A stretch of 64,000 bases of DNA from an uncultured Candidatus Binatia bacterium (GCA_965247985.1 OZ252051.1:252240-316239); one strand, 5' to 3'; counted from the first letter of the stretch, positions 1-45,165 are shown. Made by a program: numbers and translations. The notes: generated by a model not told the origin, from the sequence alone.

Positions 1-1089
1 TAAAAAATGGTCAATATACGGCAGGGCGGCCTTCATGCCCTGGGCGCGCGGCTCAAAACTGGCCGCGCCGTACATGGGATTGATCCAGACCACCGTATCC
101 ACCCGTCGCCGCAGGGCGCGCATTTCGCGCTGAATGACTTCAGTTTGACCGCTGTCATAACCATCACTGATAATGATGGCCACTGTCGAACGGGCCGAGC
201 CTTCACGCAGGACGCCACGATTCAACTCGGCGAGCGCCCGTCCGATATCCGTGCCGCCGGACCAATGCCGGACCGTCTCACCGACCTGCTGCAAGGTGTG
301 TTGCACGGAGCCACGGCGCAAGAGCGCGGTAATCTCGGTCATCTCCGTACTGAACACCACCGTACGGGAATTCTTGAGTTCCTGCTGAATCCCCAGCATA
401 AGCTGCAACAGGAACGGGTTAAACGCATCCATAGAGCCGCTCACATCGCACAGCATGACGAGGCGCGTCTTGCGCACGCGGCGTTGGACGCGGGAGAGTT
501 CCAGCATGTCCAGGCCGTGACGCAGATTGCGCCGGAGTGAGCGACGCAGGTCTATTCGCCGGCCGCGTGGGGACGGCTTGAGACGCCGGCTGGGGCGCGT
601 GGCAAGCCGCCTTGCCAGGATACGAACCGTCTGGGCTATGGGCGGAGCGTCCTCATCCCAGCGCGCCGTCAGGTTGAGGTCGCGCAGGGTTTCTTCCGCG
701 CTGCTGTCTTCCCGCTGGCCAATAATGTCCTGGTGCGCCTCCTGAAAGCCCTGATCCAACGCTCCCCGGAGCAATTCGGTTTGCATCCCCATGCGGTGGC
801 CTTCGTTCTCTGCTTCCCCGTACCAGTAAGCGTGGAACAGACGGTCAAAGCGCTGTTCCTCCTCGCGGCTACTGGCCAGATTCGTGCGCAGGGCAAGGCG
901 GAAGTCGTCCTCATGCACAAACCGAATCCCACCCAGGGAACGCACCGCATCAATGACCCGCCCCTGGGTCACACCCAGCCGCGCATCCTTGGCTAATCGA
1001 CACAGTGCAAGCGTGCGGGTGAGCAGCGTCTCGGGCAGCTCGCTCAGAGCGGATGGCTCTTCTTTCAGAGGGTTTTCTGTTGGTGGCAT
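1..1089 (-). CDS. VWA (von Willebrand factor A) domain protein, CoxE-like; 3' end runs off window start
   Basis: Minus-strand frame is open from ATG at 1089-1087 to the window edge. The translation (MPPTENPLKEEPSALSELPETLL...) contains the MIDAS-like motif VMLCDVSGSM. It lies immediately downstream of a MoxR ATPase, as in MoxR-VWA pairs. It is not in the ORF track because its stop is off-window. Confidence 0.8.
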   Translation of the reverse strand, partial: MPPTENPLKEEPSALSELPETLLTRTLALCRLAKDARLGVTQGRVIDAVRSLGGIRFVHEDDFRLALRTNLASSREEEQRFDRLFHAYWYGEAENEGHRMGMQTELLRGALDQGFQEAHQDIIGQREDSSAEETLRDLNLTARWDEDAPPIAQTVRILARRLATRPSRRLKPSPRGRRIDLRRSLRRNLRHGLDMLELSRVQRRVRKTRLVMLCDVSGSMDAFNPFLLQLMLGIQQELKNSRTVVFSTEMTEITALLRRGSVQHTLQQVGETVRHWSGGTDIGRALAELNRGVLREGSARSTVAIIISDGYDSGQTEVIQREMRALRRRVDTVVWINPMYGAASFEPRAQGMKAALPYIDHFL

Positions 1090-2100: not shown

Positions 2101-5100
2101 CTAGAACGCAGCCACGCTGAGATCGTTTGATCTGTCTGCCAGCCGTTGCTCAAAAGCGACCAGCTCGTCATCCAGGATGCTGAAGTATTTGGCTTCGGGA
2201 TGATGAAAGACGAGCGCCGAGACCGAGGCTTCCGGCTCCATCATGTAGCCCTCGGTCAGCTCGACGCCGATTGCCTCGCTGACTGGTAGCAACTGAAACA
2301 AGCGTTCCTGGTCTTCAAGGCGCGGACAGGCCGGATAGCCGAAGCTTACCCGGACCCCGCGGTATTGGGCCTTGAAGCGCTCGCGCATGGTCAACTCTGG
2401 CGGGTCGGCAAAACCCCACATCTCACGCAGGCGTTGATGGAGCAGTTCGGCAAACGCCTCCGCGCCTTCAATGGCAAGGGATTGGAGAATATGGGAGTCG
2501 AGGTAGCGGCCGGCTTCGCGGTAGTGTTCCGCCAGTTCGCGTACACCATGGCCACAGGTCACCACGAACAGCGCGATATAATCCTGTGTGCCGGCGCTGG
2601 TCGGAGCCGCGAAGTCGCTCAGACAGCGCCCCTCGCCGTGCTGCTGACGGGGAAAAAGAAACGTCTCGGCAAGGTCTTTTCCGTTTGCCCGATACAGCCG
2701 TAGGCTATCGCCGTCCGCCTGGGCCGGAAAGAATTGATACACCGCCCGCGCGTGGAGCAGTTTTTTTGCAATAACCTCGTCCATCACGGCTTCGACCTGC
2801 TGGTGTAACTCGACGGCTTTCTCGTTGCCCTGCTCTAATAAGGTCTCAAGATTGCCCTTGAGCCCCAGGTGCTTGCCGTACAGCATGGTCGGGTTGAGAT
2901 AGGCAAAGATCGCGTCCAGGTCGTAATCATCAAGCGTATGCAGACGCAGATCAGGCGGGCGGGGGGCTGGCTGTTCGTGCGACAGCACGAGCGGTTGGAC
3001 TATAGGGGCCATGGATTTTCGCGGCTGAGACTTGCGGTCCTGCCGGGCCAGACGGGTCCGTTCTTTTTCAAGCTCCAGAATAAGCGCCGCGTGCTTGTCT
3101 TCATCCACAAGCCGGTTGGCCAGATCAAGACCGCGCATGGCATCGTTGGCGTAACACACCAGGCCGTCGTATTCCGGTGCAATTTTATTCGCGGTAAAAC
3201 GCGGCGTCAGCGCGGCCCCCCCCACCAGAATGGGGCACCCCACCTGGGCGGTTTTGAGGTCCTGGGCCGTCACCACCATCTGTTGGGCCGATTTGACCAG
3301 CAAACCGGACAGACCCACGATATCCGGCTGATGCTCCCGCACGGCGGCGATGAGAGTTTCGGGCGCGACTTTAATACCCAGGTTCACCACGCGGTAGCCG
3401 TTATTGGACAGGATGATTTCCACCAGGTTTTTGCCGATATCATGCACATCGCCCTTGACGGTGGCCAGGAGGACGGTGCCTTTGAGCACACTGTCAGCTT
3501 TCTCCATAAAGGGTTCGAGATGACCAACCGCAGCCTTCATGGCCTCGGCGCTTTGCAGGACCTCGGCCACAATGAGTTCGTTGTTGTTAAACAGTCGTCC
3601 GACTTCATCCATCCCCGCCATGAGCGGGCCGTTGATGATATCCAGGGGCAGCCGCTCTTGGAGGGCGGTGTTGAGATCGGCAATCAGGCCATCTTTTGAG
3701 CCTTCTATAATATACCGAGCCAGCCGTTCATCCAGCGGCAGGTCGGCGCGGTTATCCTCAAGCGGCGTTTCTTTTTTCTGTCGAAAGTGGGCCGCAAAAG
3801 CGGCGACCGGGTCCTCACCGCGCCAATAAATCAGATCGTCAGCGAGTTGTTTCTCTTCTTCGGCAATCGAGGCGTAGCGTTCCAGCTTTTCCGTGTTGAC
3901 AATCGCCAGGTCGAGACCGGCTTTGACACAGTGGTAGAGAAACACGGAGTTCAGCACCTCTCGGCCGGCCGGCGGCAGGCCAAAGGAGACATTGCTGATA
4001 CCCAGGATGGTCTTGCAGGCCGGCAGCGCTTGGGTAATCAGCCGGACGCCTTCAATCGTCTCTTCCCCCGCGCCAATATAGTTATGGTCTCCGGTTCCGA
4101 GGGGAAACACCAGCGGATCAAAAATGAGATCTTCAGCAGACAGGCCGTATTTTTGGGTGAGTAGCGCATAGCTCCGTTTCGCAACTGCGAGTTTCCGCTG
4201 ACGGGTGACGGCCATGCCCTGTTGCGGGTCTTCATCAATACAGCCCACCACCACTGCCGCGCCGTAGCGTTTGATGAGCGGCACGACCTGCGCAAACCGC
4301 TCCTCGCCGTCTTCCAGGTTGATCGAGTTGATAATAGCCTTGCCCTGCGACCGTTCCAGCGCGGCTTCAATGACCTGGGCATCGGTCGAGTCGATCATAA
4401 GCGGCACTTTGATCTTCCGTACCAGAATGTCCAGGAAGGTGGTCATATCGCTGAGTTCTTCGCGGTCCGGGTCTGCGACACACACATCCACGACCTGGGC
4501 TCCACCACGCACCTGCCGACGGCCGATTTCTGCGCCTTCTTCAAACGCACCATCAGTGATGAGCCGCTTGAATTTGCGTGACCCAATCACGTTCGTTCGC
4601 TCACCGACCAGCACCGGCCGTTTGTCTTCGTCGATCACCAGGGGTTCGAGTCCAGACACCACACTCCGTTTGGTCGTCGGCAGCGTCCGAGGCCGCTTGC
4701 CCTCCAACATCTGACTGAGCAACTCGATATGCGCGGGCGTCGTGCCACAGCAGCCGCCCAGCATATTGAGCCAGCCGGCATCGACAAAACGTTCGAGCTT
4801 GGCCGCAATCATCTCGGGCGATTCGTTGTACTGCCCGTCTTCGTCCGGCAAGCCGGCGTTCGGAATACACAACACGGGAAAATGAGAGAGCTCGGCTAAG
4901 GTACGTAAATGATCGGTCATAAAATCGGGGCCGGTGGCGCAGTTCAGCCCGAGCGCGAACAGGTCCTGATGCGCCACGGAGGTATACAACGCCTCCACAC
5001 CCTGTCCGGCCAACATCGTCCCCATCGTTTCAACTGTGATGGAGACGGCGACAGGCACGCGGTGCCCGACCGTTCGAAACGCGTCATCGATTCCCAACAG

Positions 5101-5655
5101 GCCCGATTTCAGATTGAGCGTGTCCTGTGTGGTTTCCATCACCAGCAGGTCCACTCCACCCCGCAACAGACCTTCTGCCTGGCCGGCATAGGCGTGGCGC
5201 AGCTGGCTGAAGGTCACACCGCCAGTGACGGAAATCGTTTTGGTCGTCGGCCCCATGGAGCCGGCCACAAAGCGGGACTTTTGGGGTGAGCTATAGCGTT
5301 GGGCACAGGCCCGAGCAAGCTGTGCCGCGGCCTGGTTTATTTCTACCGCTTTCTCTTGCAGACCATATTCGGCCAGGACGATGCTGGCAGCGCCAAAGGT
5401 ATTCGTCTCAATAATATCCGACCCGGCCTGTAAGAAGCTGTCATGAATCTGCGTAATCGCCTCAGGGCAGGTCAACACCAGGTGTTCATTACAGCCTTCA
5501 TACTCAAGGCCGCCGAAATCTTCTGCGCTCAGATTTTGGGCTTGGATGGACGTCCCCATTGCGCCATCGAAGAGCAGCACCCGTTCGTGTAGGAGGGCAC
5601 GCAGTTCACTGGCAGTAGCCGATAAGGAAGGCAATGTGTCGCTCAAATCTCCCAC
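2101..5655 (-). CDS. metH: cobalamin-dependent methionine synthase
   Basis: 1184-aa ORF with homocysteine-binding, pterin-binding, B12-binding (DVHDIGKN) and AdoMet-activation domains in canonical order. Confidence 0.95.
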   Translation of the reverse strand: MGDLSDTLPSLSATASELRALLHERVLLFDGAMGTSIQAQNLSAEDFGGLEYEGCNEHLVLTCPEAITQIHDSFLQAGSDIIETNTFGAASIVLAEYGLQEKAVEINQAAAQLARACAQRYSSPQKSRFVAGSMGPTTKTISVTGGVTFSQLRHAYAGQAEGLLRGGVDLLVMETTQDTLNLKSGLLGIDDAFRTVGHRVPVAVSITVETMGTMLAGQGVEALYTSVAHQDLFALGLNCATGPDFMTDHLRTLAELSHFPVLCIPNAGLPDEDGQYNESPEMIAAKLERFVDAGWLNMLGGCCGTTPAHIELLSQMLEGKRPRTLPTTKRSVVSGLEPLVIDEDKRPVLVGERTNVIGSRKFKRLITDGAFEEGAEIGRRQVRGGAQVVDVCVADPDREELSDMTTFLDILVRKIKVPLMIDSTDAQVIEAALERSQGKAIINSINLEDGEERFAQVVPLIKRYGAAVVVGCIDEDPQQGMAVTRQRKLAVAKRSYALLTQKYGLSAEDLIFDPLVFPLGTGDHNYIGAGEETIEGVRLITQALPACKTILGISNVSFGLPPAGREVLNSVFLYHCVKAGLDLAIVNTEKLERYASIAEEEKQLADDLIYWRGEDPVAAFAAHFRQKKETPLEDNRADLPLDERLARYIIEGSKDGLIADLNTALQERLPLDIINGPLMAGMDEVGRLFNNNELIVAEVLQSAEAMKAAVGHLEPFMEKADSVLKGTVLLATVKGDVHDIGKNLVEIILSNNGYRVVNLGIKVAPETLIAAVREHQPDIVGLSGLLVKSAQQMVVTAQDLKTAQVGCPILVGGAALTPRFTANKIAPEYDGLVCYANDAMRGLDLANRLVDEDKHAALILELEKERTRLARQDRKSQPRKSMAPIVQPLVLSHEQPAPRPPDLRLHTLDDYDLDAIFAYLNPTMLYGKHLGLKGNLETLLEQGNEKAVELHQQVEAVMDEVIAKKLLHARAVYQFFPAQADGDSLRLYRANGKDLAETFLFPRQQHGEGRCLSDFAAPTSAGTQDYIALFVVTCGHGVRELAEHYREAGRYLDSHILQSLAIEGAEAFAELLHQRLREMWGFADPPELTMRERFKAQYRGVRVSFGYPACPRLEDQERLFQLLPVSEAIGVELTEGYMMEPEASVSALVFHHPEAKYFSILDDELVAFEQRLADRSNDLSVAAF

Positions 5656-8916: not shown

Positions 8917-9357
8917 CCGGCGTCCTGCGGTTATCCGCACGGTGCGGGCTGACCCGACGCACGGACCTGAGAGAAGACATACGGTCTGTCAGGAATAACG
9001 GCCACCTTTGACCCGGCGGGCAGACCGTTGCAGAGCGCATAGACGGCGTGAGCGGGTAGAGGAGCCTTCTGGAGACTGGTATATACAAAGGGAAAACCGG
9101 CTCACGGCATAGAGCGGAACCCCTATTCTGGACAACCGATTCTTCGAACAGCCGGTCTTCTGGATTCCCGGAGTGAATAACCACGGACAGTATGGGTGTT
9201 GGGCCTTCGCCGAATTCACGGAGGTGTATCAGATCGAGGCTGACTTTCAGGCCAAGCCCGAAGCCTATCTTGGCAGTCTCATCAACCGATCCCGAGAGTG
9301 ACCTGCGTTGCCAGCGCTGAATCAGAATACACCCGCCGTGCGCCTGGAAAAGTCGAT

Positions 9358-9665
9358 ATGAAAACCGTTGAACAAATACGGAGCCAACTATCGCTAGGCG
9401 AGTTCGGATTCAGCCGTCACGCTCTAAAGCGCGTCGTGGAACGGAATATCAGTGAACAGGAGATCAGACAGGCGGGGCGGCGAGCAACCGTGATTGAAGA
9501 GTATCCACAGGATAAGTATTCTCCAAGCTGTTTGTGTTGGGTTTCACACAAACGGGACGCCCGCTGCATATCCAGGTATCGCTTTCAGAGACAGTTCTCG
9601 TAAAAATCATTACGCTCTATGAGCCAAATGCAAGGGAATGGGTCAATTACTCCCAGCGGAGGTAA
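9358..9665 (+). pseudogene. DUF4258-family toxin-like protein with a -1 frameshift near 9531-9534
   Basis: Frame A (MKTVEQIRSQLSLGEFGFSRHALKRVVERNISEQEIRQAGRRATVIEEYPQDKYSPSCL...) matches the DUF4258 N-terminal part. The conserved C-terminal part (VLGFTQTGRPLHIQVSLSETVLVKIITLYEPNAREWVNYSQRR) is in the -1 frame and ends at TAA 9663-9665. The two frames overlap at tgtTTGtg. Confidence 0.65.
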
Positions 9666-9668
9666 GCT

Positions 9669-9914
9669 ATGGTCACCTGTGAGGTCTGTCATGCCGAGGA
9701 GAGCCGAGAGGCAGTGGTAGACGAAATTTTTCAGATCGATGGGAAGTATGTCCGAGTCGATCATATTCCCGCCACTGTGTGTATCCGCTGTGGGGAAGAG
9801 ACCTTCAGCCGTGAAACCACAGAAACAATTCGTCTGATGGTTCATGGACAAGCGAAACCGGCAAAGTCTATTGCCCTGGAGGTCTTCGAGTTTACCCATG
9901 CCCTGAAAATATAA
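9669..9914 (+). CDS. YgiT-type zinc-finger protein (MqsA N-domain-like), putative antitoxin partner of DUF4258
   Basis: 81 aa with CxxC...CxxC (CEVC...CIRC). It starts 4 nt after the DUF4258 stop. Confidence 0.7.
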   Translation: MVTCEVCHAEESREAVVDEIFQIDGKYVRVDHIPATVCIRCGEETFSRETTETIRLMVHGQAKPAKSIALEVFEFTHALKI

Positions 9915-9930
9915 GAGTCCCCTAAAGACC

Positions 9931-10227
9931 GTGAAAACGCTCATACACCAAGACGCATCGCGCAAGAACATCCTCACGGCGGAGTTTCAGTCGATGATGC
10001 GTAAGGACGGGTTTTGCGGAAGAGAGTTCAAGCCAGCCACTTTCCCTGGGGCCAACGACCCTTACAAGGCCCTCAAGACCACCCTCAAAGCCGAGATCAA
10101 CGCAGGCGCCTGGGCGGCACTCCACAGCGACGCCTCACGCCCGTTCGACAAACCCACGTCCGGTCGGACTGCAGTCAAGGTCATCAACCATCTGGGCGAC
10201 GAGGTGATGAAGGTGTTTCGGATATGA
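9931..10227 (+). CDS. hypothetical protein
   Basis: 98-aa ORF. Its stop overlaps the ATG of the next gene (ATATGA). No recognisable domain. Confidence 0.35.
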   Translation: MKTLIHQDASRKNILTAEFQSMMRKDGFCGREFKPATFPGANDPYKALKTTLKAEINAGAWAALHSDASRPFDKPTSGRTAVKVINHLGDEVMKVFRI

Positions 10228-11718
10228 GAACACCCCCTCCGAGACAAGTCTTTGACGATCCGACAGGGCATTGGGCCTTTCTCACCCAAAGCTCTGATGA
10301 CGATTTCGAGGGTCAGCATTTCGACCGTAAAGAGGCTGGTCGGGCGGATGTTGATACAGCAAAGCTTAAGAAACAACTACAAGAAGTACGAGATGAGATA
10401 AAAGCGTCTATCTCGGCATTCGCCAACAGCAACATTGAGGGTGGGCTGCTCGTTCTTGGGATTGCCTCCGATGGAACCGTGAGCGGCATTGACCATCTAT
10501 CAGAAGAGCAAAAGAACAGTCTGACAGATTTTGCGACACTTCTGCATCATCAGGCAGCGGAACCTAAGCTGCATGAATACGTGGACACTGATGGCAACTC
10601 TAAGACTATCTGTCTAATCTTCGTTCCCTACGCAGATAAAGGCATTTGCCAAACACCAGAGCGGATGCCTAAAGCCTGGACCCGAAATGGCCCCCAAAAT
10701 GTCCCAATGACGCAGGAGGTCCGTGATCGAATCAGGTCTCGGAAGGGATTACTGGATTTTGAGAGCACTTTCTGCTGCCCATTCAACAATGAGGATGTCG
10801 CCAAGGATGTTTTGGGAGAATTCCGAAGAGTATTCCTTCCTACGTCAAACGGCGAGTTTACCGACGAGCGGCTGCTTTATGAAGCGGGAGCTATCGCTCA
10901 ACGCAATGGAGAGTATTGGTTTACACACGCCGGCCTGTTGTTCTTTGCATCAAATCCACAACGTGTCCTTCCTCAATCCCATATTCGCCTGCTTCGCCGT
11001 TTCTTCCGACCAATTCCAATAGCGGGGTCTGCCGACTCTTGATAGGTCGTTTACAGGTCCGCTGACGAAGCAGATTCGCGACGCTCGGACTTTCTTCCGG
11101 GAATCGGCGTTTTTCAAACGATACCAGAGGCGAAAAACCGGAGGCGGCTTTGTGGAGGAACAGGAGTTTCCGCCAACAGTGATTGATGAAGCCATCGTCA
11201 ATGCGATCACTCACCGTGATTACCGAACTGGTATCCCGATTGAATGTGAGTCGTACTCCGATGCCTTCCTGGTAAAGAACCCCGGTCGAATGCTGCAACG
11301 AGATAACGACCTACCAAACGAATTCTCGCTCTCCGATACGGTACTGAACTCGATGCCGAGAAACGCAAAATTGATCGAATGGCTCAAGCTGATGAAAGAC
11401 CCTGACGGCGTTATCTATCTCTCGACGACCGGCTACAACCCGTTTCGTCGGGCGCTGGGAACACCGAAACCGCTGGAAGTCTCGGCGTGGATCCATCGGC
11501 CAGAAGAATTACCGAGGGCGGAACTCGACCTTCGTGTTCTCGCGGTGCAAGTTCTAAACCTGACCAAGTTGAATTGGGCGTCTACAGATTCGTTCTGCGG
11601 AGAGCCTATTACTTTGAAGTACGCTGGAAACATTGCGTACTTGACCGCCGCATTTCTAAGACAATCCGAACCGTTCAACCTTCACCCTGTCCTGGAAAAA
11701 ACACCGTGGTTCATTTGA
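10224..11718 (+). pseudogene. Schlafen-like AlbA_2 + HATPase_c_4 (RecG-C-terminal-like) putative DNA-binding protein split by a +1 frameshift near 11036-11040
   Basis: 10224-11042 encodes the AlbA_2 domain (ISAFANSNIEGGLLVLGIASDGTVSGI). The frame starting at 11023 (RGLPTLDRSFTGPLTKQIRDARTFF...VIDEAIVNAITHRDY) carries HATPase_c_4. Deleting one T near 11037 joins them into one ORF of about 498 aa. Confidence 0.6.
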
Positions 11719-16932: not shown

Positions 16933-17928
16933 ATGCGGAACGAGCGCGGCGTTGTCCTGCTTGTTGTCATGTGGGCCCTGGTGGTGCTCATGGTTGTTGC
17001 GATTGAGCTGGGCCGTACCGCCCGGGTGGAGGGGCTGAGTACTGATGTCTACCAACAGGAGGTCAAAACCTATTATTTAGCCCTAGCTGGACTGAACCGG
17101 GCACTGTATCAGCTCGTCCAGACGAGCCAGCAGGGCCGCACACGGGATACCCGAGACGATGACCGGCTCGGGCCGCGTGATCGGCTGAATTCTGATGAGG
17201 AAAACCAAGAGGAGTGCCCGGACCCCTGGCTGCTCGGCGACGGACAATGGAAAGATGAACCGTATGGCGAGGGCGGGTATCAGGTCCGCGTCAGTGACGA
17301 GAGCGGTAAAATCAATATCAACCAAGTGGATGAGATTATCTTGCGTCAAACCTTTACCAATCTGGACTTTGATCCGGACTTTGGGGATGCCCTGGCCGAT
17401 GCCATACTCGACTGGCGCGACCCGGATGCGTTAGAGCGGCTGAATGGGGTCGAGAGTGAGTACTACTTGGCGCAAAATATTGCCTATCCGGCAAAGGACG
17501 GACCGTTCGACACGATTGATGAGCTGCTGCTGATTCGTGACGTCACCCAGGAGCTGTTCTACAACACCCTCAATAACGTGTTCACGGTGTATGGGAATGC
17601 ACGAACCGGAAATATGGCCAATGTCCAAACGGCAAACGCCTTGGTGCTCCGGGCCGTACAGGGTATTGATGCGGAAACCGCTGATGAATTGGTCCAGCAA
17701 AGGCAAGAAACCTGCGGGCAAGATTTCCTAGACGCGACTGCTGCCCGGGGAGGTCTCCCCACGCTGGTCACGATAGAGAGCGTCGGCTATCTGCATACCG
17801 GACGTATCACCCGCCGGCTGGCCGGGGTTGTGCACCGCACGGGAGGCCAGTATCAGATGCTGCGCTGGCAAGATCGTCTCCCCTCACCAGCCCTCCCGCT
17901 CAGAAAAGACGCCTTTGAAGACGAGTGA
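16933..17928 (+). CDS. GspK-like minor pseudopilin
   Basis: N-terminus MRNERGVVLLVVMWALVVLMVVAIEL, typical of GspK. ATG at 16933 directly follows the gspJ stop. Confidence 0.7.
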   Translation: MRNERGVVLLVVMWALVVLMVVAIELGRTARVEGLSTDVYQQEVKTYYLALAGLNRALYQLVQTSQQGRTRDTRDDDRLGPRDRLNSDEENQEECPDPWLLGDGQWKDEPYGEGGYQVRVSDESGKININQVDEIILRQTFTNLDFDPDFGDALADAILDWRDPDALERLNGVESEYYLAQNIAYPAKDGPFDTIDELLLIRDVTQELFYNTLNNVFTVYGNARTGNMANVQTANALVLRAVQGIDAETADELVQQRQETCGQDFLDATAARGGLPTLVTIESVGYLHTGRITRRLAGVVHRTGGQYQMLRWQDRLPSPALPLRKDAFEDE

Positions 17929-17969
17929 AGGGGAGGGGTTCTGATCCGGCCCGTCGGATGACGCCCCTG

Positions 17970-17991
17970 GCTAATCCGATCTACGGGACTG
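17970..17991 (-). repeat. REP-like motif R0
   Basis: Minus-strand reading is cagtcccgtagatcggattagc. Confidence 0.7.
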
Positions 17992-17993
17992 TC

Positions 17994-18013
17994 ATTCCTG
18001 CGCAAGCAGGAAT
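17994..18013. repeat. hairpin attcctgc gcaa gcaggaat upstream of the GIY-YIG gene
   Basis: 8-bp perfect inverted repeat with a 4-nt loop. Confidence 0.6.
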
Positions 18014-18026
18014 CCAGGAGTCACCC

Positions 18027-18296
18027 ATGATCGAAAGACAGCCGACCGTGTATATCCTGGCAAGCCACCGCAATGGAACGCTCTATACGGGCGTCACGAG
18101 TCATCTGGTGGCACGAGTGTGGCAGCACAAAAACGACGCGGTTGAGGGGTTTACCAAAAAGTACGGCGTCCACACCTTAGTGTATTATGAAGTGTATGAA
18201 GATATGCTGTCGGCGATCAACAGAGAAAAGCAAATCAAGAAGTGGAAATGGCACTGGAAGCACTCCGCCCACCAAGGGCTGAGCAGCGGGATTTGA
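18027..18296 (+). CDS. GIY-YIG nuclease family protein
   Basis: MIERQPTVYILASHRNGTLYTGVTSHLVARVWQH shows the GIY-YIG motif. It is preceded by the 17994-18013 hairpin and by a REP-like motif. Confidence 0.7.
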   Translation: MIERQPTVYILASHRNGTLYTGVTSHLVARVWQHKNDAVEGFTKKYGVHTLVYYEVYEDMLSAINREKQIKKWKWHWKHSAHQGLSSGI

Positions 18297-18511
18297 CGCT
18301 GAGAATGTGGCATTTCGGAAACTCCATCTTGCGGGTTAACGGACTGACTATTTTGGAGTGAAATCGAGCTCCCATTGGGCCACGCGCTTGTGACTCGATC
18401 AGCACGAAGGCTATTGCCGATAAGACTCAAGTGTAGTCGTATTCGCGATGATGCTTTCCCAATTAAGCCGACACCTCGAAACACCAAGTTAAATTTTGTC
18501 GGGTCAGCGAC

Positions 18512-18770
18512 ATGCCAATCAGATCAATCACACTGTTGTTTCCGGTAATCGTCGGCTGTCTCATCTCCTCCTGCTCCCTGACACCAAATCGAATTCCCCC
18601 GGTTCTCGAAGCAGTTACGGAGTTACCCGACGAGTTTGCCGAAAGTGAAGTTGCCGGCTCATACGAGCCGCTGGAGTGGTGGAAGGCGTTCACCGACCCG
18701 GTTCTCGACCAGGTAATCGAAGCGGTGCTTGCCTCGAACTTCGACCTAGCCGAGGCGACCGTTGCATACC
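18512..18770 (+). pseudogene. N-terminal fragment (about 85 aa) of a NodT/OprM-family efflux outer-membrane lipoprotein
   Basis: Lipobox LISSCSL plus WWKAFTDPVLDQVIEAVLASNFDLAEA. Similarity is lost after about 85 aa. The segment is GC-rich. Confidence 0.5.
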
Positions 18771-18967
18771 TGGCCGCCGACCTCCGGCCCCAGGTACGAG
18801 CCCAGGTGCGGACATACCGCGTCGGCCACGCACACACGGCCTGCTTCGTCGCACCAGGCGACGATTTCCTCGCCCAGCCACGTCTTCTCGATCAGTTTCT
18901 CTCGCAGAATGGACTCGCGGCTTGTGACGAAATACCACCCCTCGGGGAACGCTGGCAACTCATCCAT
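18746..18967 (-). pseudogene. fragment of a Rieske [2Fe-2S] domain protein
   Basis: 73 aa (WYFVTSRESILREKL...VCPHLGSYLG) resembling a Rieske N-terminus including the first CxH box. The second box is absent. Confidence 0.35.
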
Positions 18968-19065
18968 GCTATTCTTTGTTAGAATACTTAATCAGAGATT
19001 CCTCTACAAGTCGCGTACAACAGTACAAGACAGTCTCACCCTTCTCTTTAGGAGGCCTTCTACGC

Positions 19066-19371
19066 ATGAGCGATCAAACCGCTGCGCAAAGCAAGAAGCC
19101 CTCCCCCCGCTCGGAGCACACCTCGACTGACCCGATCGAGGACATGCTGCGGGCCGCGCTCGCCCATCATCGGTCGGGCCGGCCGCAGGCTGCGGCGTCA
19201 CTCTGCCAGCAGATCCTGCGGCAGAACCCCGACCATGCCGACGCCCTACATCTACTCGGCGTGCTCCATGCCCAGGCGGGCCAGTTCGCGGCGGCATTGC
19301 CGCACCTCGTCAAGGCCACACGCCAGGCACCGTGCCACGCTGGCTTCCTGAATAATTACGCCTCCGGCTAA
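19066..19371 (+). pseudogene. N-terminal fragment of an alphaproteobacteria-like TPR-repeat protein
   Basis: AGGAGG 10 nt upstream of ATG 19066. MSDQTAAQSKK...QQILRQNPDHADALHLLGVLHAQAGQFAAALPHL shows TPR repeats. It is truncated after about 100 aa, at REP-like motif R1. Confidence 0.5.
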
Positions 19372-19388
19372 TCCGACCCACGATACTG
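19367..19388 (-). repeat. REP-like motif R1
   Basis: Minus-strand reading is cagtatcgtgggtcggattagc. Confidence 0.7.
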
Positions 19389-19414
19389 CACGCTCGAGGG
19401 CAGAGGAAAGCAGT

Positions 19415-19625
19415 ATTTTCACCAAACCCCGCTTTGGGACCGCCTATCGTGGATATACCGCCCATATCGTAACCAAAGACGAGATGGACGTCTGCATCTG
19501 AGCAGCATTTGGTCCCGGCTTGAAAGGGGTCTGCCTTAGCCGGGCAGCAGTGCCATTTTCACCAAACCCCGCTTTGGGACCGCCTATCGTGGATATACCG
19601 CCCATATCGTAACCAAAGACGAGAT
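19415..19625. repeat. imperfect tandem duplication, 71 identical bp repeated at about 140-bp spacing
   Basis: attttcaccaaaccccgctttgggaccgcctatcgtggatataccgcccatatcgtaaccaaagacgagat occurs at 19415-19485 and 19555-19625. Confidence 0.9.
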
Positions 19626-19959
19626 CGCCCGTATGAAGGGCGAAATCGCCCATCAGGATTCCCCCTTGCATAGGTGCCTTGAGTTTTGCGGACATCCGGA
19701 TGGCGGCGATCAGAAACGAGAGGCAGATGAGCGCCTCGGTCGCGAGGTACGCTCCGGTCTGGATTGCGGGGTTCGTAATGGCCCGCCAAGTGAGGCTTGA
19801 GCCGGAGAAGATGGTGTCCAGGGCGAGGACGTGCCGGACGAACGCCCAGTTGCTCTCGTAGTCGGTGAGGTTCCCGAGCGTGACCAGGAACACCCAGAGG
19901 GCGAGCCCTGCGGTGATCACAATCTTCGAGAGTCGGACGGCGACTGTCTCAGCGTTCAT
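19444..19959 (-). CDS. DUF2165-family small membrane protein with its C-terminus altered by a tandem duplication
   Basis: The N-terminal roughly 135 aa look like a DUF2165 membrane protein. The last roughly 37 codons read through the spacer and the first copy of the 140-bp duplication in a shifted frame. Confidence 0.5.
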   Translation of the reverse strand: MNAETVAVRLSKIVITAGLALWVFLVTLGNLTDYESNWAFVRHVLALDTIFSGSSLTWRAITNPAIQTGAYLATEALICLSFLIAAIRMSAKLKAPMQGGILMGDFALHTGDLVFGYDMGGISTIGGPKAGFGENGTAARLRQTPFKPGPNAAQMQTSISSLVTIWAVYPR

Positions 19960-20065
19960 TGCTGTCCTCCCTGGTGAGCTTGGAAGAGCCGGCCATTGGC
20001 GCTGGCCCGGCGATCCGGTGCCGTGGCGCTCATCTTACACGTTCGCCGGTTCAACCCCAGGTCCG

Positions 20066-20087
20066 CAGTCCCGCAGGTCGGATTAGC
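20066..20087 (+). repeat. REP-like motif R2
   Basis: cagtcccgcaggtcggattagc, flanked by the inverted repeat agtcccgcagg (20067-20077) / cctgcgggact (20102-20112). Confidence 0.7.
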
Positions 20088-20176
20088 GGAGCGTAGTCCG
20101 GCCTGCGGGACTGGCGAGTAACAGCGGAATGGCGTAGGGTAGACGCTCTCTTATCCGTTCTACCAAGGACACAGCG

Positions 20177-20413
20177 ATGAGCCTGAATATCAGAAATGAA
20201 GAGACCTGTCGGCTCGCTGGCGAACTCGCCCGGCTGACGAGTGAGACCATGACCGGTGCTATTACCGTTGCGTTACGCGACCGCTTGGCGTACGAGAAAC
20301 GCCGGCGCAGCGTGGAGGCCCGGGCTCAAAAGATTCACGCCATCGGCCAATATTGTGCCTCTCTATCTGAGGCCAGGGCCAGCGGCCGTAGAACACGGGG
20401 ATATGCTTTATGA
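20177..20413 (+). CDS. vapB: VapB-type antitoxin (Rv0623-like)
   Basis: MSLNIRNEETCRLAGELARLTSETMTGAITVALRDRLAYE matches this antitoxin family. Its stop abuts the vapC start. Confidence 0.75.
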   Translation: MSLNIRNEETCRLAGELARLTSETMTGAITVALRDRLAYEKRRRSVEARAQKIHAIGQYCASLSEARASGRRTRGYAL

Positions 20414-20431
20414 TGAGCGGGGCTTGCCCAG

Positions 20432-20777
20432 GTGATTATCGACACGTCGGCGATCCTGGCTGTCCTGTTCGCCGAGCCGGATACGGAACGCTACGAAAAA
20501 GCCATAGCCGCGGCCTCGCCTTGCCGGATGTCGGTCGCCAATCTGCTTGAAGCGTCAATCGTGGTCGAGAGTCGTGGCGACGGAGATCGAGTTGATACCG
20601 GTCACGCGTGAACAGGCCGCGGCCGCTCGTCAGGCGTGGCGACGCTTCGGCAAGGGCAATCATCCAGCAGCGTTGAATTTTGGAGACTGCTTCGCATATG
20701 CGCTCGCACAAACGAACCGCGAGCCTCTTCTGTTCAAGGGCGAGGATTTCGCCCGGACCGATGTCGAGGTGGCCTGA
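20432..20777 (+). pseudogene. vapC: VapC PIN-domain toxin with an internal deletion and frameshift
   Basis: GTG 20432 frame gives VIIDTSAILAVLFAEPDTERYEKAIAA...ESRGDGD, then stops. A different frame from about 20583 gives EIELIPVTREQAAAARQAWRRFGKGNHPAALNFGDCFAYALA...FKGEDFARTDVEVA. About 12 residues are missing at the junction. Confidence 0.6.
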
Positions 20778-20899
20778 CGCGCCTGATCGTGGGCCAGAAC
20801 CTCCCCCGACCCGAACCAGGCCGACGATCTGGAGTGGCTCCGGGCTCGTCCAAGACTCTTCGGAGGTAGTTTGTGTGGGCGGCTTCAATACCAACAAAA

Positions 20900-20921
20900 T
20901 AGTTCCGTAGGTCGGATTAGC
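20900..20921 (+). repeat. REP-like motif R3
   Basis: tagttccgtaggtcggattagc, followed by the partial palindrome gcgtaagccgac. Confidence 0.7.
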
Positions 20922-20968
20922 CTAGCGTAAGCCGACATTTCCGGCTAAGGCGAATCGCTGTCCCCTTG

Positions 20969-21205
20969 TCACGCCTCCTCATCTTCCAGTTCCGATTCCA
21001 GTAATTCCTCTTGTTCTTCGAGACGCACCTGGAGCGTACTCAGCGCTTCAAATACGGCACTCACCGCTTCCTGAAAGTCATCCTCGGCACTGACCACTCC
21101 GGCTGCCACGCGCTCTTCACAATCCCGACTCACCTCTGCAATGGACAGTTTGGCTGATTTCACTAAGCCGATCCATTGACCGATAATCGCAAGCGCATCT
21201 TCCAT
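20969..21205 (-). CDS. small acidic coiled-coil hypothetical protein (78 aa)
   Basis: Strong SD AAAGGAGG 8 nt upstream of ATG 21205. The remainder of the 304-aa track ORF overlaps the thiolase gene and is rejected. Confidence 0.5.
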   Translation of the reverse strand: MEDALAIIGQWIGLVKSAKLSIAEVSRDCEERVAAGVVSAEDDFQEAVSAVFEALSTLQVRLEEQEELLESELEDEEA

Positions 21206-21280: not shown

Positions 21281-22483
21281 ATGCGACAGGTTGCACTCGT
21301 TGGAGCGGGGATGACGCACTTTGGCAAACATGTGGATCGCAGCATGAAAGATTTGGCCCGGGAGGCGATTGAAGGCGCCGTGCAATCGGCAGGGGTCAGC
21401 CCGCAGGATATTGAGGCCGCGGCCGTGGGGAATGCGGTGGCCGGCTTGATCACCGGACAGGAGTGTATCCGGGGGCAGGTCGTGCTGCGTGAGCTCGGCA
21501 TTGGGGGCATCCCGGTCATTAATACCGAAAATGCGTGTGCCAGCTCTTCCACCGCCTTTCATCTGGCCTGGCTCTACGTTGCGTCCGGGATGTATGACGT
21601 TGTGCTCGCGCTCGGGATGGAGAAGCTCTTTCATCCAGATAAGCAGCGGACGTTCCAGGCGATTGGCAGCGCAATCGATCTCGAGCAGGCCGAGACGTTT
21701 GCCAGAGAGATGAGCGGCGAGCAAAGCGCGGGAGCCGGTCAGTCCCGAAGCGTTTTTATGGATTACTATGCTAACCTCGCCCGGCAGCATATGCAGCGCT
21801 ACGGCACAACGCAGAAACAGTTCGCCCGCATCGCCGCCAAGAATCATACCAACGGGAGCTTGAATCCTCATGCCCAGTATCAAACCCGCCGCTCGGTCGA
21901 AGATGTGCTAGCAGCGCCACTCATTGCGGACCCGCTCACCCGCATGATGTGTTCTCCCATTGGCGATGGCGCAGCGGCTGTCCTCGTGACAACAGCCGAC
22001 AAAGCGCGCCAACTCACAACACAGCCGGTCTATGTCAAAGCTTCTACTTTGGGTTCAAGCAAGAAACACGATGCAGATACCCCTGGTATCGTCCCGTCAG
22101 TCGCCCACAAGGCATACGAGCAAGCTGGGCTTGGACCGGATGATCTCCAGGTTGTTGAGGCCCACGACGCCACTGCTCCAGCCGAGCTCCTTGTGTATGA
22201 GGAATTGGGTCTGTGCCAAGCCGGCGAGGGCGGGAAACTCATTGATGAGGGCGTGACACAGCTTGGTGGACGCTGCCCGGTCAATCCGAGTGGCGGTCTC
22301 CTCGCCAAAGGCCATCCGGTCGGTGCGACCGGAGTTGCCCAGATCTGTGAAATATTCTGGCAGCTCCGTGGCGAGGCCGGCGAGCGGCAGGTAGAGGGCG
22401 CAAAAGTGGGCCTGACCGAAAACGGCGGCGGCGTGCTTGGCGGCGAAAACGCGGCAGCGTCCATCCACGTGTTTAGCGTCTGA
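21281..22483 (+). CDS. thiolase-like protein (SCP-x / acetyl-CoA acetyltransferase-like)
   Basis: 400 aa with thiolase N- and C-terminal domains and active-site region NTENACASS. Confidence 0.85.
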   Translation: MRQVALVGAGMTHFGKHVDRSMKDLAREAIEGAVQSAGVSPQDIEAAAVGNAVAGLITGQECIRGQVVLRELGIGGIPVINTENACASSSTAFHLAWLYVASGMYDVVLALGMEKLFHPDKQRTFQAIGSAIDLEQAETFAREMSGEQSAGAGQSRSVFMDYYANLARQHMQRYGTTQKQFARIAAKNHTNGSLNPHAQYQTRRSVEDVLAAPLIADPLTRMMCSPIGDGAAAVLVTTADKARQLTTQPVYVKASTLGSSKKHDADTPGIVPSVAHKAYEQAGLGPDDLQVVEAHDATAPAELLVYEELGLCQAGEGGKLIDEGVTQLGGRCPVNPSGGLLAKGHPVGATGVAQICEIFWQLRGEAGERQVEGAKVGLTENGGGVLGGENAAASIHVFSV

Positions 22484-24148: not shown

Positions 24149-24843
24149 TTGGGAGGACGTATGGACGACGAAGCATTCATAGCGGCACTACAGCTGAGCG
24201 ACTCCTTTTTTCCCGCCGGCACAGTCACCCTGTCTCACGGCCTGGAAACCTTTCTCAGCGACCAGTCCACGGCTCTCGACCTGTCTCAGCTCCTTCACAA
24301 TTATCTCGAACGGAAAATGACTCCCTGTGATCTCGTTGCCTATGCGCACGCTTATCGGGCCGCAGAAGAGGGAGACGTTGAGCGTTTGCATCAGATCGAT
24401 CGCTACTTGCATGTTTCGCTTCTGCCGCAAGAACTGCGTCAAGGCTCCGCACGTTCAGGCCGGGCGACGCTGGAAACACTGCGTCGCTTAGTCGAGGAGC
24501 CCCTCTTCCAGACATTTCTCGTTGGCATAGACGCGGGCAAGAGTGGCGTCATATACCCATTTGCCTGGGCCTCTTACACGTTCTGTGGCGCATCCCCCAA
24601 CGCAGAGGCGGCGCGATGCTGCTCTACACCTTTATGGTGAATTTTCTTGGTGCAGCCATCCGTTTGGGCTGTCTGGGGCATCGGGAAGCACAGAGGTTGC
24701 TCGTCAAATTCCGGCCTCATTTGATTCCACTCGTGGATCAAGCACTAGAGAGCCCACTCGAAGAGATCGGTACTTTTGTTCCGCTCGCAGATATCCGAGC
24801 GATGCAACATGCCCACTTAGCTGTCCGACTTTTTAGTAGCTAG
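24149..24843 (+). pseudogene. ureF: urease accessory protein UreF, -1 frameshift near 24611-24613, no other ure genes nearby
   Basis: N-part ALQLSDSFFPAGTVTLSHGLETF... (24149-24640) and C-part FLGAAIRLGCLGHREAQRLL...RLFSS (to 24843) are in different frames. One G appears to be missing in gaggcggcgcgatg. Confidence 0.6.
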
Positions 24844-24930
24844 AGCAACGCTATCCTGACTCCCCATTTGTCTTCACCAGGCTTGTCTGGAGGCTGGGCT
24901 ATGGAGTAAGATTCCACATTATTTTTCTGT

Positions 24931-25004
24931 GCCCCCGTAGCTCAGTAGGATAGAGCACCGGATTCCTAATCCGGGTGTCGTGCGTTCGAATCGCGCCGGG
25001 GGCA
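24931..25004 (+). tRNA. tRNA-Arg (anticodon CCU)
   Basis: Cloverleaf with acceptor stem GCCCCCG/CGGGGGC, anticodon loop UUCCUAA and T-loop TTCGAAT. Confidence 0.85.
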
Positions 25005-25038
25005 GTTTTCTTCTCAGCGCGGGATATGCGGGCTACAA

Positions 25039-41097: not shown

Positions 41098-41497
41098 ACT
41101 GTCTTTCCTGTGGATAACCTGTGGATAACCTGTGGATAACCTGTGGATAACCTGTGGATAACCTGTGGATAACCTGTGGATAACCTGTGGATAACCTGTG
41201 GATAACCTGTGGATAACCTGTGGATAACCTGTGGATAACCTGTGGATAACCTGTGGTCTGGGAAAAGTTATCCACAGGTATCCACAGGTATGGCGAAGTT
41301 ATCCACACCCCCTGTGGATAACTTTTCCCAGAATAAACAAATACTTAACCCACTTATCCACATATCCACAGGCCCTACTACTACTATTAGTACTTCTATA
41401 TATTAATAAGTAGTAGAATAAGTAGTAGTAGTAAGAAAAATGAGAATAAAAATCAGAGAAAAGACTATGGTTAATAAAAGGAAGGAAAGGGGGGTAT
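41098..41497. other. putative oriC in the dnaA-dnaN intergenic region
   Basis: 13-box array, plus boxes at 41268-41276, 41299-41307, 41313-41321 and 41354-41362, then an AT-rich DUE-like tract 41378-41490. Confidence 0.8.
41109..41249. repeat. 13 perfect head-to-tail DnaA boxes (TGTGGATAA) at an exact 11-bp period
   Basis: Unit cctgtggataa x13 followed by a degenerate copy tgtggtctg. Confidence 0.95.

Positions 41498-42708: not shown

Positions 42709-45165
<2,457 letters not shown>

What the first reader, a model, noticed from the sequence alone, without database searches (positions are those of the whole stretch)
17970..20921. Four copies of a REP-like about 22-bp motif (CAGTYCCGYAGGTCGGATTAGC) between the mosaic segments, as two inverted pairs
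R0 (17970-17991) and R1 (19367-19388) are in one orientation. R2 (20066-20087) and R3 (20900-20921) are in the other. R1 and R2 flank the DUF2165 segment as imperfect inverted repeats. R0 and R3 bracket the whole mosaic. Each motif begins with a GTAG, GCAG or GTGG tetranucleotide followed by GTCGGATTAGC and a partially complementary tail. This is reminiscent of REP/BIME elements mobilised by RAYT-type transposases, or of site-specific recombination sites. Only R2 sits inside an extended 11-bp inverted repeat.
Basis: seen in the sequence. Interest (0 to 1): 0.55.

Follow-up and report, generated by a model that had tools for sequence, protein, structure and literature searches.

The report
Decayed REP hairpins bounding a variable islet
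The four repeats are real, worn-out copies of a well-known kind of small bacterial repeat (a REP hairpin, elsewhere spread by a RAYT transposase), and they mark the ends and two inner joints of a 3-kb patch of broken genes that related bacteria lack; this is an ordinary kind of element in a slightly unusual setting.

Summary
The 22-mer occurs four times against zero expected, and nowhere else in the 64 kb. Each full unit is 34-48 nt: AGTyCCG, then GTAG/GCAG/GTGG, then a bulged hairpin GTCGGATTAGC-loop-GCGTAATCCGAC.

This is a GTAG-tagged REP. A capped scan of species genomes gave 120 loci from at least six phyla or classes. Outside the searched bases, 89% of copies carry GTAG and 89% carry the full 3' arm. 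They form close dimers and tandem arrays. In three loci they flank RAYT genes, one matching E. coli TnpArep (PDB 4ER8) at E 2.7e-52.

The window has no RAYT, transposase or integrase. Its four copies are degenerate: two have a mutated tetranucleotide, one lacks its 3' arm and one has a weakened stem.

Comparison with relatives shows that 17953-20968 is an islet inserted between gspK and a conserved 78-aa gene. R0 and R3 lie at or near its two ends. About 105 kb of relatives' DNA holds no copy.

Verdict: REP relics in a hypervariable, pseudogene-filled islet. It is a new member of a known kind. There is no evidence for an inversion switch or an integron. Whether the REPs caused the mosaic or only travelled with it is unresolved.

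The parts
17953..17991 (-). R0, a REP copy. On the minus strand it reads CAGTCCC-GTAG-ATCGGATTAGC-CAGGG-GCGTCATCCGAC. GTAG is intact, but the stem is weakened by a G-to-A change and an extra bulge. It is the left end of the islet.
   Evidence: It scores 16.9 bits against the family profile, below the family's 5th percentile of 22.5. Homology to relatives L126 and L127 stops at 17952-17955, exactly where its 3' arm begins.
19355..19388 (-). R1, a truncated REP copy. On the minus strand it reads CAGTATC-GTGG-GTCGGATTAGC-CGGAG-GCGTAAT. The 3' arm is missing because the copy is joined directly to the truncated 3' end of a TPR gene fragment.
   Evidence: It scores 23.4 bits and has no stable fold. 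GTGG is a minority variant in the family, seen in 4 of 171 copies.
20066..20113 (+). R2, a REP copy turned into a 48-nt near-perfect palindrome: CAGTCCC-GCAG-GTCGGATTAGC-GGA-GCGTAGTCCGGC-CTGC-GGGACTG. It reads as a tagged REP on both strands.
   Evidence: Arms are 20 nt and 90% complementary (I5). The fold is -23.2 kcal/mol with z = -5.96. It scores 26.9 bits. GCAG is seen in 7 of 171 family copies.
20900..20936 (+). R3, the best-preserved REP copy: TAGTTCC-GTAG-GTCGGATTAGC-CTA-GCGTAAGCCGAC. It lies at the right end of the islet, 32 nt before the stop codon of the conserved 78-aa gene.
   Evidence: It scores 38.1 bits against a family median of 42.5. Homology to relatives L121-L125 and L128 resumes at 20962-20969.
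17953..20968 (.). The variable islet, about 3.0 kb of gene fragments inserted between gspK (stop codon at 17926-17928) and the 78-aa gene (20969-21205, minus strand). GC content runs from 50% to 64% along it.
   Evidence: L125 has gspK, then 62 bp, then the 78-aa gene, then thiolase. Blastn breakpoints are, the alignment and composition.
17991..18296 (+). A 3'-truncated small GIY-YIG gene (ORF 18027-18296; similarity to intact relatives ends after codon 74). It is preceded by the hairpin GTCATTCCTGCGCAAGCAGGAATCCAGG (17991-18018), which abuts R0.
   Evidence: Pfam GIY-YIG at E 1e-13. The intact relative L130 has the same hairpin on both sides of a 97-aa gene.
18512..18747 (+). The first 78 codons of a lipoprotein-type ORF. 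It resembles the N-terminus of an outer-membrane efflux factor, but this is my reading and has no Pfam hit. It is cut off at the junction with the Rieske fragment, and there is no REP at this junction.
   Evidence: ORF and sequence. No Pfam family. The junction is placed by the end of the Rieske match.
18748..18974 (-). The N-terminal fragment of a Rieske (KshA-like) oxygenase gene. It is 94% identical in DNA to the intact gene that lies about 1.2 kb from the 78-aa gene in relatives L122-L124.
   Evidence: Pfam Rieske, blastn and gene maps.
19066..19371 (+). The N-terminal fragment of a TPR protein. Its reading frame ends inside R1.
   Evidence: Pfam TPR families and sequence.
19409..19959 (-). 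A disrupted DUF2165 gene. Only about the first 100 codons (roughly 19660-19959) match homologues. Its tail holds a direct duplication of 71 nt exact (about 80 nt at 96%), at 19409-19485 and 19546-19625.
   Evidence: Pfam covers residues 9-107 of 171. Homologues cover 73% of the query. L150 matches at 81% DNA identity over 19703-19959 only. The repeat is (D1).
20177..20777 (+). A vapB antitoxin gene (20177-20413) and a frameshifted vapC PIN toxin gene, split into 20432-20611 and 20547-20777.
   Evidence: Pfam PSK_trans_fac, plus the two halves of PIN at profile positions 1-52 and 64-118. There are weak VapC hits on plasmids.

Best explanation
The four motifs are degenerate copies of a widespread GTAG-tagged REP family. 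Its consensus is CCGTAGGTCGGATTAGC-GAA-GCGTAATCCGACA, forming a 9-bp stem, a one-base bulge and a GC/GC clamp.

How such elements work is established for the E. coli system, not tested here. On single-stranded DNA the hairpin and its 5' GTAG are bound by a RAYT (TnpAREP, an HUH/Y1 nuclease). The enzyme cuts at a CT dinucleotide beside the hairpin and can rejoin strands, which spreads copies to new intergenic sites.

In this window the copies are relics. No RAYT is present. R1 has lost an arm, R1 and R2 have mutated tetranucleotides and R0 has a weakened stem. At most R3, and perhaps R0, could still be substrates.

They sit in a 3-kb hypervariable islet (17953-20968) made of truncated genes between gspK and a conserved 78-aa gene. 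R0 and R3 lie at or near its two ends with their GTAG ends facing inward. R1 and R2 mark two internal joints in the same relative orientation.

Inferred, not shown: the copies share a common origin, because all four carry the rare 5' extension AGTyCCG. REP hairpins, or the short spacers of tail-to-tail REP dimers where the RAYT cut site lies, may have served as preferred break or insertion points while the islet was repeatedly rebuilt. The copies have no current role beyond possibly forming hairpins in DNA or RNA.
For: Repeat reality: 4 matches against 0 expected. A profile finds only these four in 64 kb.

Family identity:
Hosts were Marinobacter, Cellvibrio, Stutzerimonas, Janthinobacterium, Nitrosospira, Binatia, Nitrospirales, Entotheonella/Tectimicrobiota and Desulfobacterales.
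- Bases outside the search pattern are conserved. GTAG occurs in 152 of 171 copies, with GCAG in 7 and GTGG in 4. The 3' arm ATCCGAC occurs in 153 of 171.
- Close dimers number HH 33, TT 26 and HT 31, with a median TT gap of 18 nt.

RAYT link:
- L086 ORF 161-652 matches PDB 4ER8 TnpArep at E 2.7e-52. REPs lie at 98-139 (+) and 699-663 (-).
- L052 and L101 (a Nitrospirales genome) have the same layout.

Decay: window copies score 38.1, 26.9, 23.4 and 16.9 bits, against a family median of 42.5. For the E. coli enzyme no GTAG mutation is tolerated. For the Stenotrophomonas enzyme GCAG is barely cut (PMC8266576).

Islet:
- L125 has gspK, 62 bp, the 78-aa gene and thiolase.
- Homology breaks at 17911-17955 and resumes at 20962-20969.
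- No REP was found in L121-L130 or L150, about 105 kb in total.

Shared rare flank: AGT[CT]CC lies next to the tetranucleotide in only 5 of 171 family copies, yet all four window copies carry the AGTyCCG-type flank (R1 degenerate: AGTATCG).

Literature: the description of family GTAG-24 fits (12-13-bp stems, one-base bulge at the tenth position, hosts including P. stutzeri, TT dimers more common than HH) (PMC3733652).
Against: - A defining REP trait, high copy number across the host genome, is not seen. There are no copies in the other 61 kb of the window or in about 105 kb of relatives. The source chromosome (4.48 Mb) could not be fetched.
- No RAYT lies nearby, so local spread cannot be shown.
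- At least three mosaic junctions (about 18250, 18747/18748 and 18975) carry no REP, so REPs do not explain every join.
- At long range (151-3000 nt) the TT orientation is not enriched in other genomes (TT 6, HH 10, HT 9). Split TT dimers are therefore not a general pattern.
- No intermediate form, such as an unsplit dimer at this site, was found in any relative.
Confidence: 0.7

Rival explanations
1. Passive hitch-hikers. Each REP came in with the horizontally acquired fragment next to it, as that gene's ordinary downstream REP in the donor genome. On this view the REPs played no part in building the mosaic.
For: - REPs usually lie just downstream of genes (PMC3733652).
- R1 lies downstream of DUF2165 in the sense orientation, and R3 lies downstream of vapBC in the sense orientation.
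- GC content differs between segments, from 50% to 64%.
- The family is common in Binatia, Nitrospirales and Entotheonella MAG assemblies, and the window's nearest relatives come from a sponge metagenome, so such genomes are plausible donors. This last step is inference.
Against: - All four copies share a 5' extension that is rare in the family (5 of 171). That argues for one origin rather than several donors, unless one donor supplied everything.
- The related DUF2165 gene in L150 has no REP nearby.
- R2 lies between divergent gene starts, which is an unusual place for a native REP.
- R0 and R3 lie at or next to the islet's borders (R0 exactly, R3 about 30 nt inside).
Confidence: 0.2
2. Active recombination sites. 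The inverted pairs R1/R2 or R0/R3 would be substrates of a site-specific recombinase that inverts or excises the enclosed DNA, as in a phase switch or an integron-like cassette array.
For: - The copies form inverted pairs (I1-I4).
- The islet is present or absent among relatives.
- It contains a toxin-antitoxin pair, which is common in cassette arrays.
Against: - The crude set of non-overlapping ORFs of at least 70 aa across the 64 kb includes no integrase, invertase or transposase.
- The copies are only 83-91% complementary and R1 is truncated.
- The enclosed genes are broken, so a switch would control nothing.
- The copies are not all in one orientation, as attC sites would be, and they lack the GTTRRRY core.
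- The same sequence elsewhere is a RAYT-flanking REP.
Confidence: 0.04
3. Assembly artefact. The mosaic would be a chimeric join of unrelated pieces at a repeat shared by co-occurring organisms in a metagenome.
For: - There is an exact 71-nt duplication 140 nt apart (D1).
- vapC is frameshifted.
- Relatives come from sponge metagenomes, and the repeat is shared by several phyla recovered as MAG assemblies, some apparently from similar marine-invertebrate habitats.
Against: - The four copies share no exact stretch longer than 12 nt, too short to collapse an assembly graph.
- Several junctions have no repeat.
- Both flanks are syntenic with relatives.
- The Rieske fragment matches a gene that neighbours this site in relatives.
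- The exact GIY-YIG and DUF2165 ORFs are recorded on one 4,480,886-bp contig.
Confidence: 0.04

Closest known systems
E. coli REP/BIME elements with TnpAREP (RAYT), i.e. the REPtron; structure PDB 4ER8
   Same: The layout is the same: a 5' GTAG followed by a bulged imperfect hairpin. The sequence is also similar (E. coli, from memory, GTAGGCCGGATAAGGCG...CGCATCCGGC; here GTAGGTCGGATTAGCG...CGTAATCCGAC). Elsewhere the family flanks RAYT genes that are 46-51% identical to the E. coli enzyme.
   Different: The window has no RAYT. It holds only four copies, all within 3 kb, with no close dimers or BIME-like arrays. Two copies have mutated GTAG and one is truncated. The host is a sponge-associated bacterium whose nearest named protein matches are Binatia, not an enterobacterium.
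GTAG-24 family of Di Nocera et al. 2013 (PMC3733652)
   Same: The published description fits this motif: 12-13-bp stems, a one-base bulge at the tenth stem position, hosts including P. stutzeri, and TT dimers outnumbering HH. Stutzerimonas stutzeri loci were among the hits (L044, L098, L104). The degenerate tags GYAG and GTRG are described there too.
   Different: I could not see Figure 1, which holds the consensus, so the assignment is inferred from the text. The phyla found here (Nitrospirota, Binatota, Tectimicrobiota) did not turn up in my term searches of that paper's text or of its held supplements.
REPINs (Bertels and Rainey 2011)
   Same: In other genomes the family forms inverted doublets with spacers of about 20 nt. 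An example is L082 3226-3312.
   Different: The window's inverted pairs are 675 and 2910 nt apart and face tail-to-tail, so they are not REPINs. R2 is a single self-complementary unit, not a doublet.
Integron attC cassette arrays
   Same: Both have imperfect palindromes separating short, unrelated and often promoterless genes, including toxin-antitoxin pairs, in a variable region.
   Different: Orientation here is mixed (- - + +). There is no GTTRRRY/RYYYAAC core and no IntI in 64 kb. The genes are fragments rather than intact cassettes.

Membership tests
REP (GTAG-tagged repetitive extragenic palindrome) | A short (20-40 nt) imperfect palindrome able to form a stem-loop | tested here: met
   R0, R2 and R3 keep both arms. 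R1 keeps only the 5' arm and loop. The family consensus has a 9-bp stem, a bulge and a GC clamp.
REP (GTAG-tagged repetitive extragenic palindrome) | A conserved GTAG tetranucleotide at the 5' foot of the hairpin | tested here: met
   R0 and R3 have GTAG, R2 has GCAG and R1 has GTGG. In 171 family copies the counts are GTAG 152, GCAG 7 and GTGG 4, although these bases were not part of the search pattern.
REP (GTAG-tagged repetitive extragenic palindrome) | High copy number dispersed through the host genome (typically more than 100) | tested here: inconclusive
   There are 4 copies in 3 kb. None are in the other 61 kb of the window, and none in about 105 kb from relatives. The 4.48-Mb source chromosome could not be retrieved. 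Loci from other genomes that carry the repeat average 2.7 copies per 10 kb, although those loci were selected for carrying it.
REP (GTAG-tagged repetitive extragenic palindrome) | Extragenic location, mostly downstream of genes | tested here: met
   All four lie outside intact genes. R1 and R3 are downstream of DUF2165 and vapBC respectively, in the sense orientation. The ORF of the TPR remnant runs into R1.
REP-RAYT system (REPtron) | A RAYT (TnpAREP) gene flanked by inverted copies of the same REP | tested here: not met
   This is not met in the window. Tblastn with four RAYTs gives only noise, and the Pfam scan of the crude non-overlapping ORFs finds no Y1_Tnp. It is met for the family elsewhere, in L086, L052 and L101.
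REPIN / BIME | Two REPs in inverted orientation separated by a short spacer, or regular alternating arrays | tested here: not met
   Inverted pairs in the window are 675-2910 nt apart. No significant partner remnants lie next to R0, R1 or R3. Close dimers are common in other genomes.
Integron cassette array (attC sites) | attC sites all in one orientation, with RYYYAAC...GTTRRRY cores, next to an intI gene | tested here: not met
   Orientation is - - + +. No such cores are visible in the units. No integrase is present in the window.
Site-specific invertible segment | Inverted repeats flanking a functional promoter or gene, plus a cognate invertase or recombinase | tested here: not met
   No recombinase is present. 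The enclosed DUF2165 gene is disrupted. R1 is truncated. Polymorphism in reads cannot be tested with these tools.

The most novel reading that the evidence does not exclude
REP tail-to-tail pairs may act as landing pads that capture foreign DNA. The short spacer between two inward-facing GTAG ends, where a RAYT acting in trans would nick, is repeatedly opened. Unrelated segments are then ligated in, including a hairpin-ended GIY-YIG mini-element that here abuts R0's tag. This would produce REP-bounded mosaics of gene fragments. It would amount to an integrase-free gene-capture route built on a domesticated HUH nuclease, shared among unrelated sponge symbionts that carry the same REP.
Probability: 0.08. 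Interest if true: 0.6.

Novelty: new member of a known kind. Interest (0 to 1): 0.3.

Why it matters
The practical value is modest. The result shows that a reader working from raw sequence can recognise REPs correctly. It also adds a case where REP relics sit at or near the borders of a strain-variable islet.

Two points may interest specialists:
- The same REP unit of about 31 nt is kept almost unchanged in Gamma- and Betaproteobacteria, Nitrospirales, Binatia, Tectimicrobiota and Desulfobacterales. The three RAYTs found next to it, however, are only 45-53% identical to one another. This bears on the debate over whether REP-RAYT systems are inherited vertically or transferred.
- The clade of this window appears to lack the repeat outside the islet. 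If so, the copies are imported or orphaned rather than part of a resident population. That situation is rarely documented.

Tried and rejected
- Rfam gathering scan of the window: only a tRNA was found.
- Intrinsic-terminator scan: none of the four REPs qualifies.
- RAYT remnant inside the islet: a loose tblastn at E up to 50 gave only noise.
- Decayed partner REPs beside R0, R1 or R3: not significant. There is a marginal match after R2 at p about 0.04, which I ignored.
- Paralogues of the mosaic fragments elsewhere in the window: none.
- Similarity of the islet to plasmids: only weak VapC matches.
- REP in viral contigs: 11 stretches of DNA in 2.9 million contigs, so it is not phage-borne.
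- DUF2165 with flanking REPs as a mobile unit: the nearest retrievable homologue (L150) has no REPs, and similarity starts exactly at the start codon.
- GIY-YIG association with the REP: no GIY-YIG was found in 120 REP loci, so the two elements are independent.
- Fetching the source contig through three exact proteins failed.
- A text search for the motif in papers found nothing relevant.
- Integron, inversion-switch and assembly-chimera readings were considered and rejected, as set out under the rival explanations.


Full report
**Observation**

The 22-mer CAGTYCCGYAGGTCGGATTAGC with up to three mismatches matches four times, at 17970-17991 (-), 19367-19388 (-), 20066-20087 (+) and 20900-20921 (+). 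Zero matches are expected in 100 shuffles. A profile built from the four finds nothing else in 64 kb. The next hit (E 0.27) is R2's own second arm. The bare 12-mer with two mismatches is not above chance, at 6 found against 5.0 expected, so the signal lies in the longer unit.

Alignment shows that the real unit is 34-48 nt. It has a 5' extension AGTyCCG, a tetranucleotide (GTAG in R0 and R3, GCAG in R2, GTGG in R1), a 5' arm GTCGGATTAGC, a 3-5-nt loop and a 3' arm GCGTAATCCGAC.
- R0 (17953-17991) has A for G at the first stem base and an extra bulge.
- R1 (19355-19388) stops at GCGTAAT, where a TPR gene fragment takes over.
- R2 (20066-20113) is a 48-nt near-perfect palindrome with 20-nt arms at 90% complementarity. 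It folds at -23.2 kcal/mol with z = -6.
- R3 (20900-20936) has one A·G mismatch.

**What the motif is**

I scanned one genome per species for GGTCGGATTAGC-N2-5-GCGTA. Hosts included Marinobacter, Cellvibrio, Stutzerimonas, Janthinobacterium, Nitrosospira, Binatia, Nitrospirales, Entotheonella/Tectimicrobiota and Desulfobacterales.

The bases outside the search pattern are strongly conserved. Among 171 copies the four bases ending at the first G of the pattern are GTAG in 152, GCAG in 7 and GTGG in 4. The 3' arm continues as ATCCGAC in 153. The two off-consensus tags in the window are therefore the family's commonest variants. The consensus is CCGTAGGTCGGATTAGC-GAA-GCGTAATCCGACA.

A profile search of the 916 kb of loci gives 243 copies. 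Close pairs (150 nt or less) occur in all three orientations: GTAG-outside 33, GTAG-inside 26 (median gap 18 nt) and tandem 31. Tandem arrays exist, for example six copies at about 115-nt spacing in L032 and three at 143 nt in L001.

Three loci carry RAYT genes bracketed by these REPs.
- L086 (Janthinobacterium): ORF 161-652, with REPs at 98-139 (+) and 699-663 (-).
- L052 (a gammaproteobacterium): ORF 4843-5385 (-), with REPs at 4846-4883 (+) and 5437-5409 (-).
- L101 (a Nitrospirales MAG): a truncated RAYT at 3576-4034, with REPs just upstream.

The L086 protein matches E. coli TnpArep (PDB 4ER8) at E 2.7e-52. The other two give weak Pfam Y1_Tnp matches: L052 just reaches the curated cut-off and L101 falls below it. 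This is the defining arrangement of a REP-RAYT system.

The literature agrees. Di Nocera et al. (PMC3733652) describe 24 GTAG-tagged families, some shared by distant organisms, with degenerate tags such as GYAG and GTRG. Their GTAG-24 family has 12-13-bp stems, a one-base bulge at the tenth position, P. stutzeri among its hosts and GTAG-inside dimers predominating. That description fits this motif. I could not see their Figure 1, so the assignment is inferred.

**What surrounds it**

Between the copies lie gene fragments.
- A small GIY-YIG gene that has lost its last ~23 codons (18027-18296).
- The first 78 codons of a lipoprotein ORF (18512-18747).
- The N-terminus of a Rieske oxygenase (18748-18974, minus strand).
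- The N-terminus of a TPR protein that runs into R1 (19066-19371).
- A DUF2165 gene matching homologues only over its first ~100 codons, with a 71-nt exact duplication in its tail.
- vapB, and a frameshifted vapC.

GC content ranges from 50% to 64% along the segment.

The crude set of non-overlapping ORFs of at least 70 aa across the window was scanned against Pfam. There is no RAYT, transposase, integrase or invertase. A deliberately loose tblastn with four RAYTs gave only noise. The window otherwise holds core genes, including dnaA-dnaN-gyrB-gyrA at 39.8-47.8 kb.

**Comparison with relatives**

The thiolase at 21281-22483 has relatives at 90-96% protein identity.
- In L125 (759-kb contig) the order is gspK, 62 bp, a 78-aa gene on the minus strand, then thiolase. 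The window has 3,040 bp (17929-20968) in place of those 62 bp.
- Blastn homology to L125 ends at 17911 and resumes at 20969. Homology to L121-L124 starts at 20962-20968.
- The closest gspK relatives are L126 and L127. L126 comes from an Aplysina aerophoba sponge metagenome. They align up to 17952-17955, which is exactly the first base of R0's 3' arm. Beyond that they carry a deaminase gene.

The islet is therefore 17953-20968. R0 is its first element and R3 ends 32 nt before its right border. Both GTAG ends face inward, and R1 and R2 have the same relative orientation.

The Rieske fragment is 94% identical to the intact gene that lies about 1.2 kb from the 78-aa gene in L122-L124. The site is therefore occupied by different content in each lineage, and the window's version is a decayed derivative.

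None of L121-L130 or L150 (about 105 kb in total) contains the REP.

**Interpretation**

The copies are REPs by structure and by family. In this window they are relics. They score 38.1, 26.9, 23.4 and 16.9 bits, against a family median of 42.5 and a 5th percentile of 22.5. Experiments on RAYTs show that the E. coli enzyme tolerates no GTAG mutation and needs the stem bulge. They also show that GCAG is barely cut by the Stenotrophomonas enzyme, and that cuts fall at CT beside the hairpin (PMC8266576). I infer that R1 and R2 are dead and that only R3, and possibly R0, could still be recognised.

All four share the 5' extension AGTyCCG, which is rare in the family. AGT[CT]CC lies next to the tag in only 5 of 171 copies. 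This points to one origin for the four, through either local copying or one donor.

Their placement at or near both islet borders and at two internal joints, one of them cut within its own 3' arm, suggests that REP hairpins were preferred break or insertion points. I could not show this. At least three other joints have no REP, long-range GTAG-inside pairs are not enriched elsewhere, and no intermediate form was found.

**Rivals**

- Passive carriage with imported fragments is plausible (confidence 0.2). It is weakened by the shared rare flank and by the REP-free context of the related DUF2165 gene.
- An inversion switch or integron is not supported. There is no recombinase, orientation is mixed, the repeats are degenerate and the cargo is broken.
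- An assembly chimera is unlikely. The copies share no exact run longer than 12 nt, both flanks are syntenic with relatives, and the exact GIY-YIG and DUF2165 ORFs are recorded on one 4,480,886-bp contig.

**Limits**

The source chromosome could not be retrieved. The genome-wide copy number and the presence of a RAYT elsewhere therefore remain unknown.

**Verdict**

The repeat is real and correctly recognised as REP-like. It is a new member of a known kind, sitting as orphaned relics in a hypervariable islet of a sponge-associated bacterium. Interest is low to moderate. The side observation of a hairpin-bracketed GIY-YIG mini-element may deserve its own follow-up.

Noticed in passing
window 17991-18296; L130 4965-5321; L141 1441-2030; L131-L140: A small GIY-YIG gene is bracketed by a palindrome of the form GTCATTCCyGC-N4-GCrGGAATCCAG. 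In the intact relative L130 the hairpin sits in inverted orientation directly on both sides of the 97-aa ORF. The window copy keeps only the left hairpin and 74 codons. The same palindrome lies near GIY-YIG homologues in a cyanobacterium (Leptolyngbya) and in metagenome contigs, and also occurs free-standing in L027, L059, L079, L085 and L101. Its form matches the Neisseria dRS3 repeat (ATTCCC-N8-GGGAAT; from memory). It could be a selfish hairpin-ended GIY-YIG mini-element.
   Followed up: partly
L131-L149: Close homologues of the GIY-YIG protein sit inside type I restriction-modification operons, between hsdS or hsdR and hsdM. This holds in many independent metagenome contigs and in Leptolyngbya sp. 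PCC 6406.
   Followed up: no
window 19409-19485 and 19546-19625: A direct duplication (71 nt exact, about 80 nt at 96%) lies 140 nt apart inside the 3' part of the DUF2165 remnant, with 60-69 nt of unrelated sequence between the copies. It could be a slippage or repair scar, or an assembly artefact.
   Followed up: partly
L032 3084-3683; L001 214-521: The same REP forms regular tandem arrays in other genomes. There are six copies at 114-119-nt spacing in Stutzerimonas tarimensis and three at exactly 143 nt in a gammaproteobacterial MAG. Each repeat unit includes conserved flanking sequence.
   Followed up: no
L086, L052, L101: RAYT proteins that flank an almost identical REP consensus are only 45-53% identical to one another and to E. 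coli TnpAREP. The DNA element is therefore far better conserved than the enzyme thought to move it.
   Followed up: partly
window 39766-47764: dnaA, dnaN, gyrB and gyrA lie together, so the window probably covers the chromosomal replication origin. The islet is about 20 kb from dnaA.
   Followed up: no
window 9298-11718: There may be a second small accessory patch here: a DUF4258 ORF, a Schlafen AlbA_2 ORF and several ORFs with no family. It lies between a sigma-54 regulator and a sulfatase gene. Homology to relative L126 starts only at 11766.
   Followed up: no
window 24149-25005: A 163-aa ORF with a partial UreF match sits next to tRNA-Arg(CCT). Relatives L121 and L122 carry urease genes (ureC, ureA) and a urea ABC transporter operon at this position after the porin-like gene. 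The urease cluster appears lost or rearranged here.
   Followed up: no
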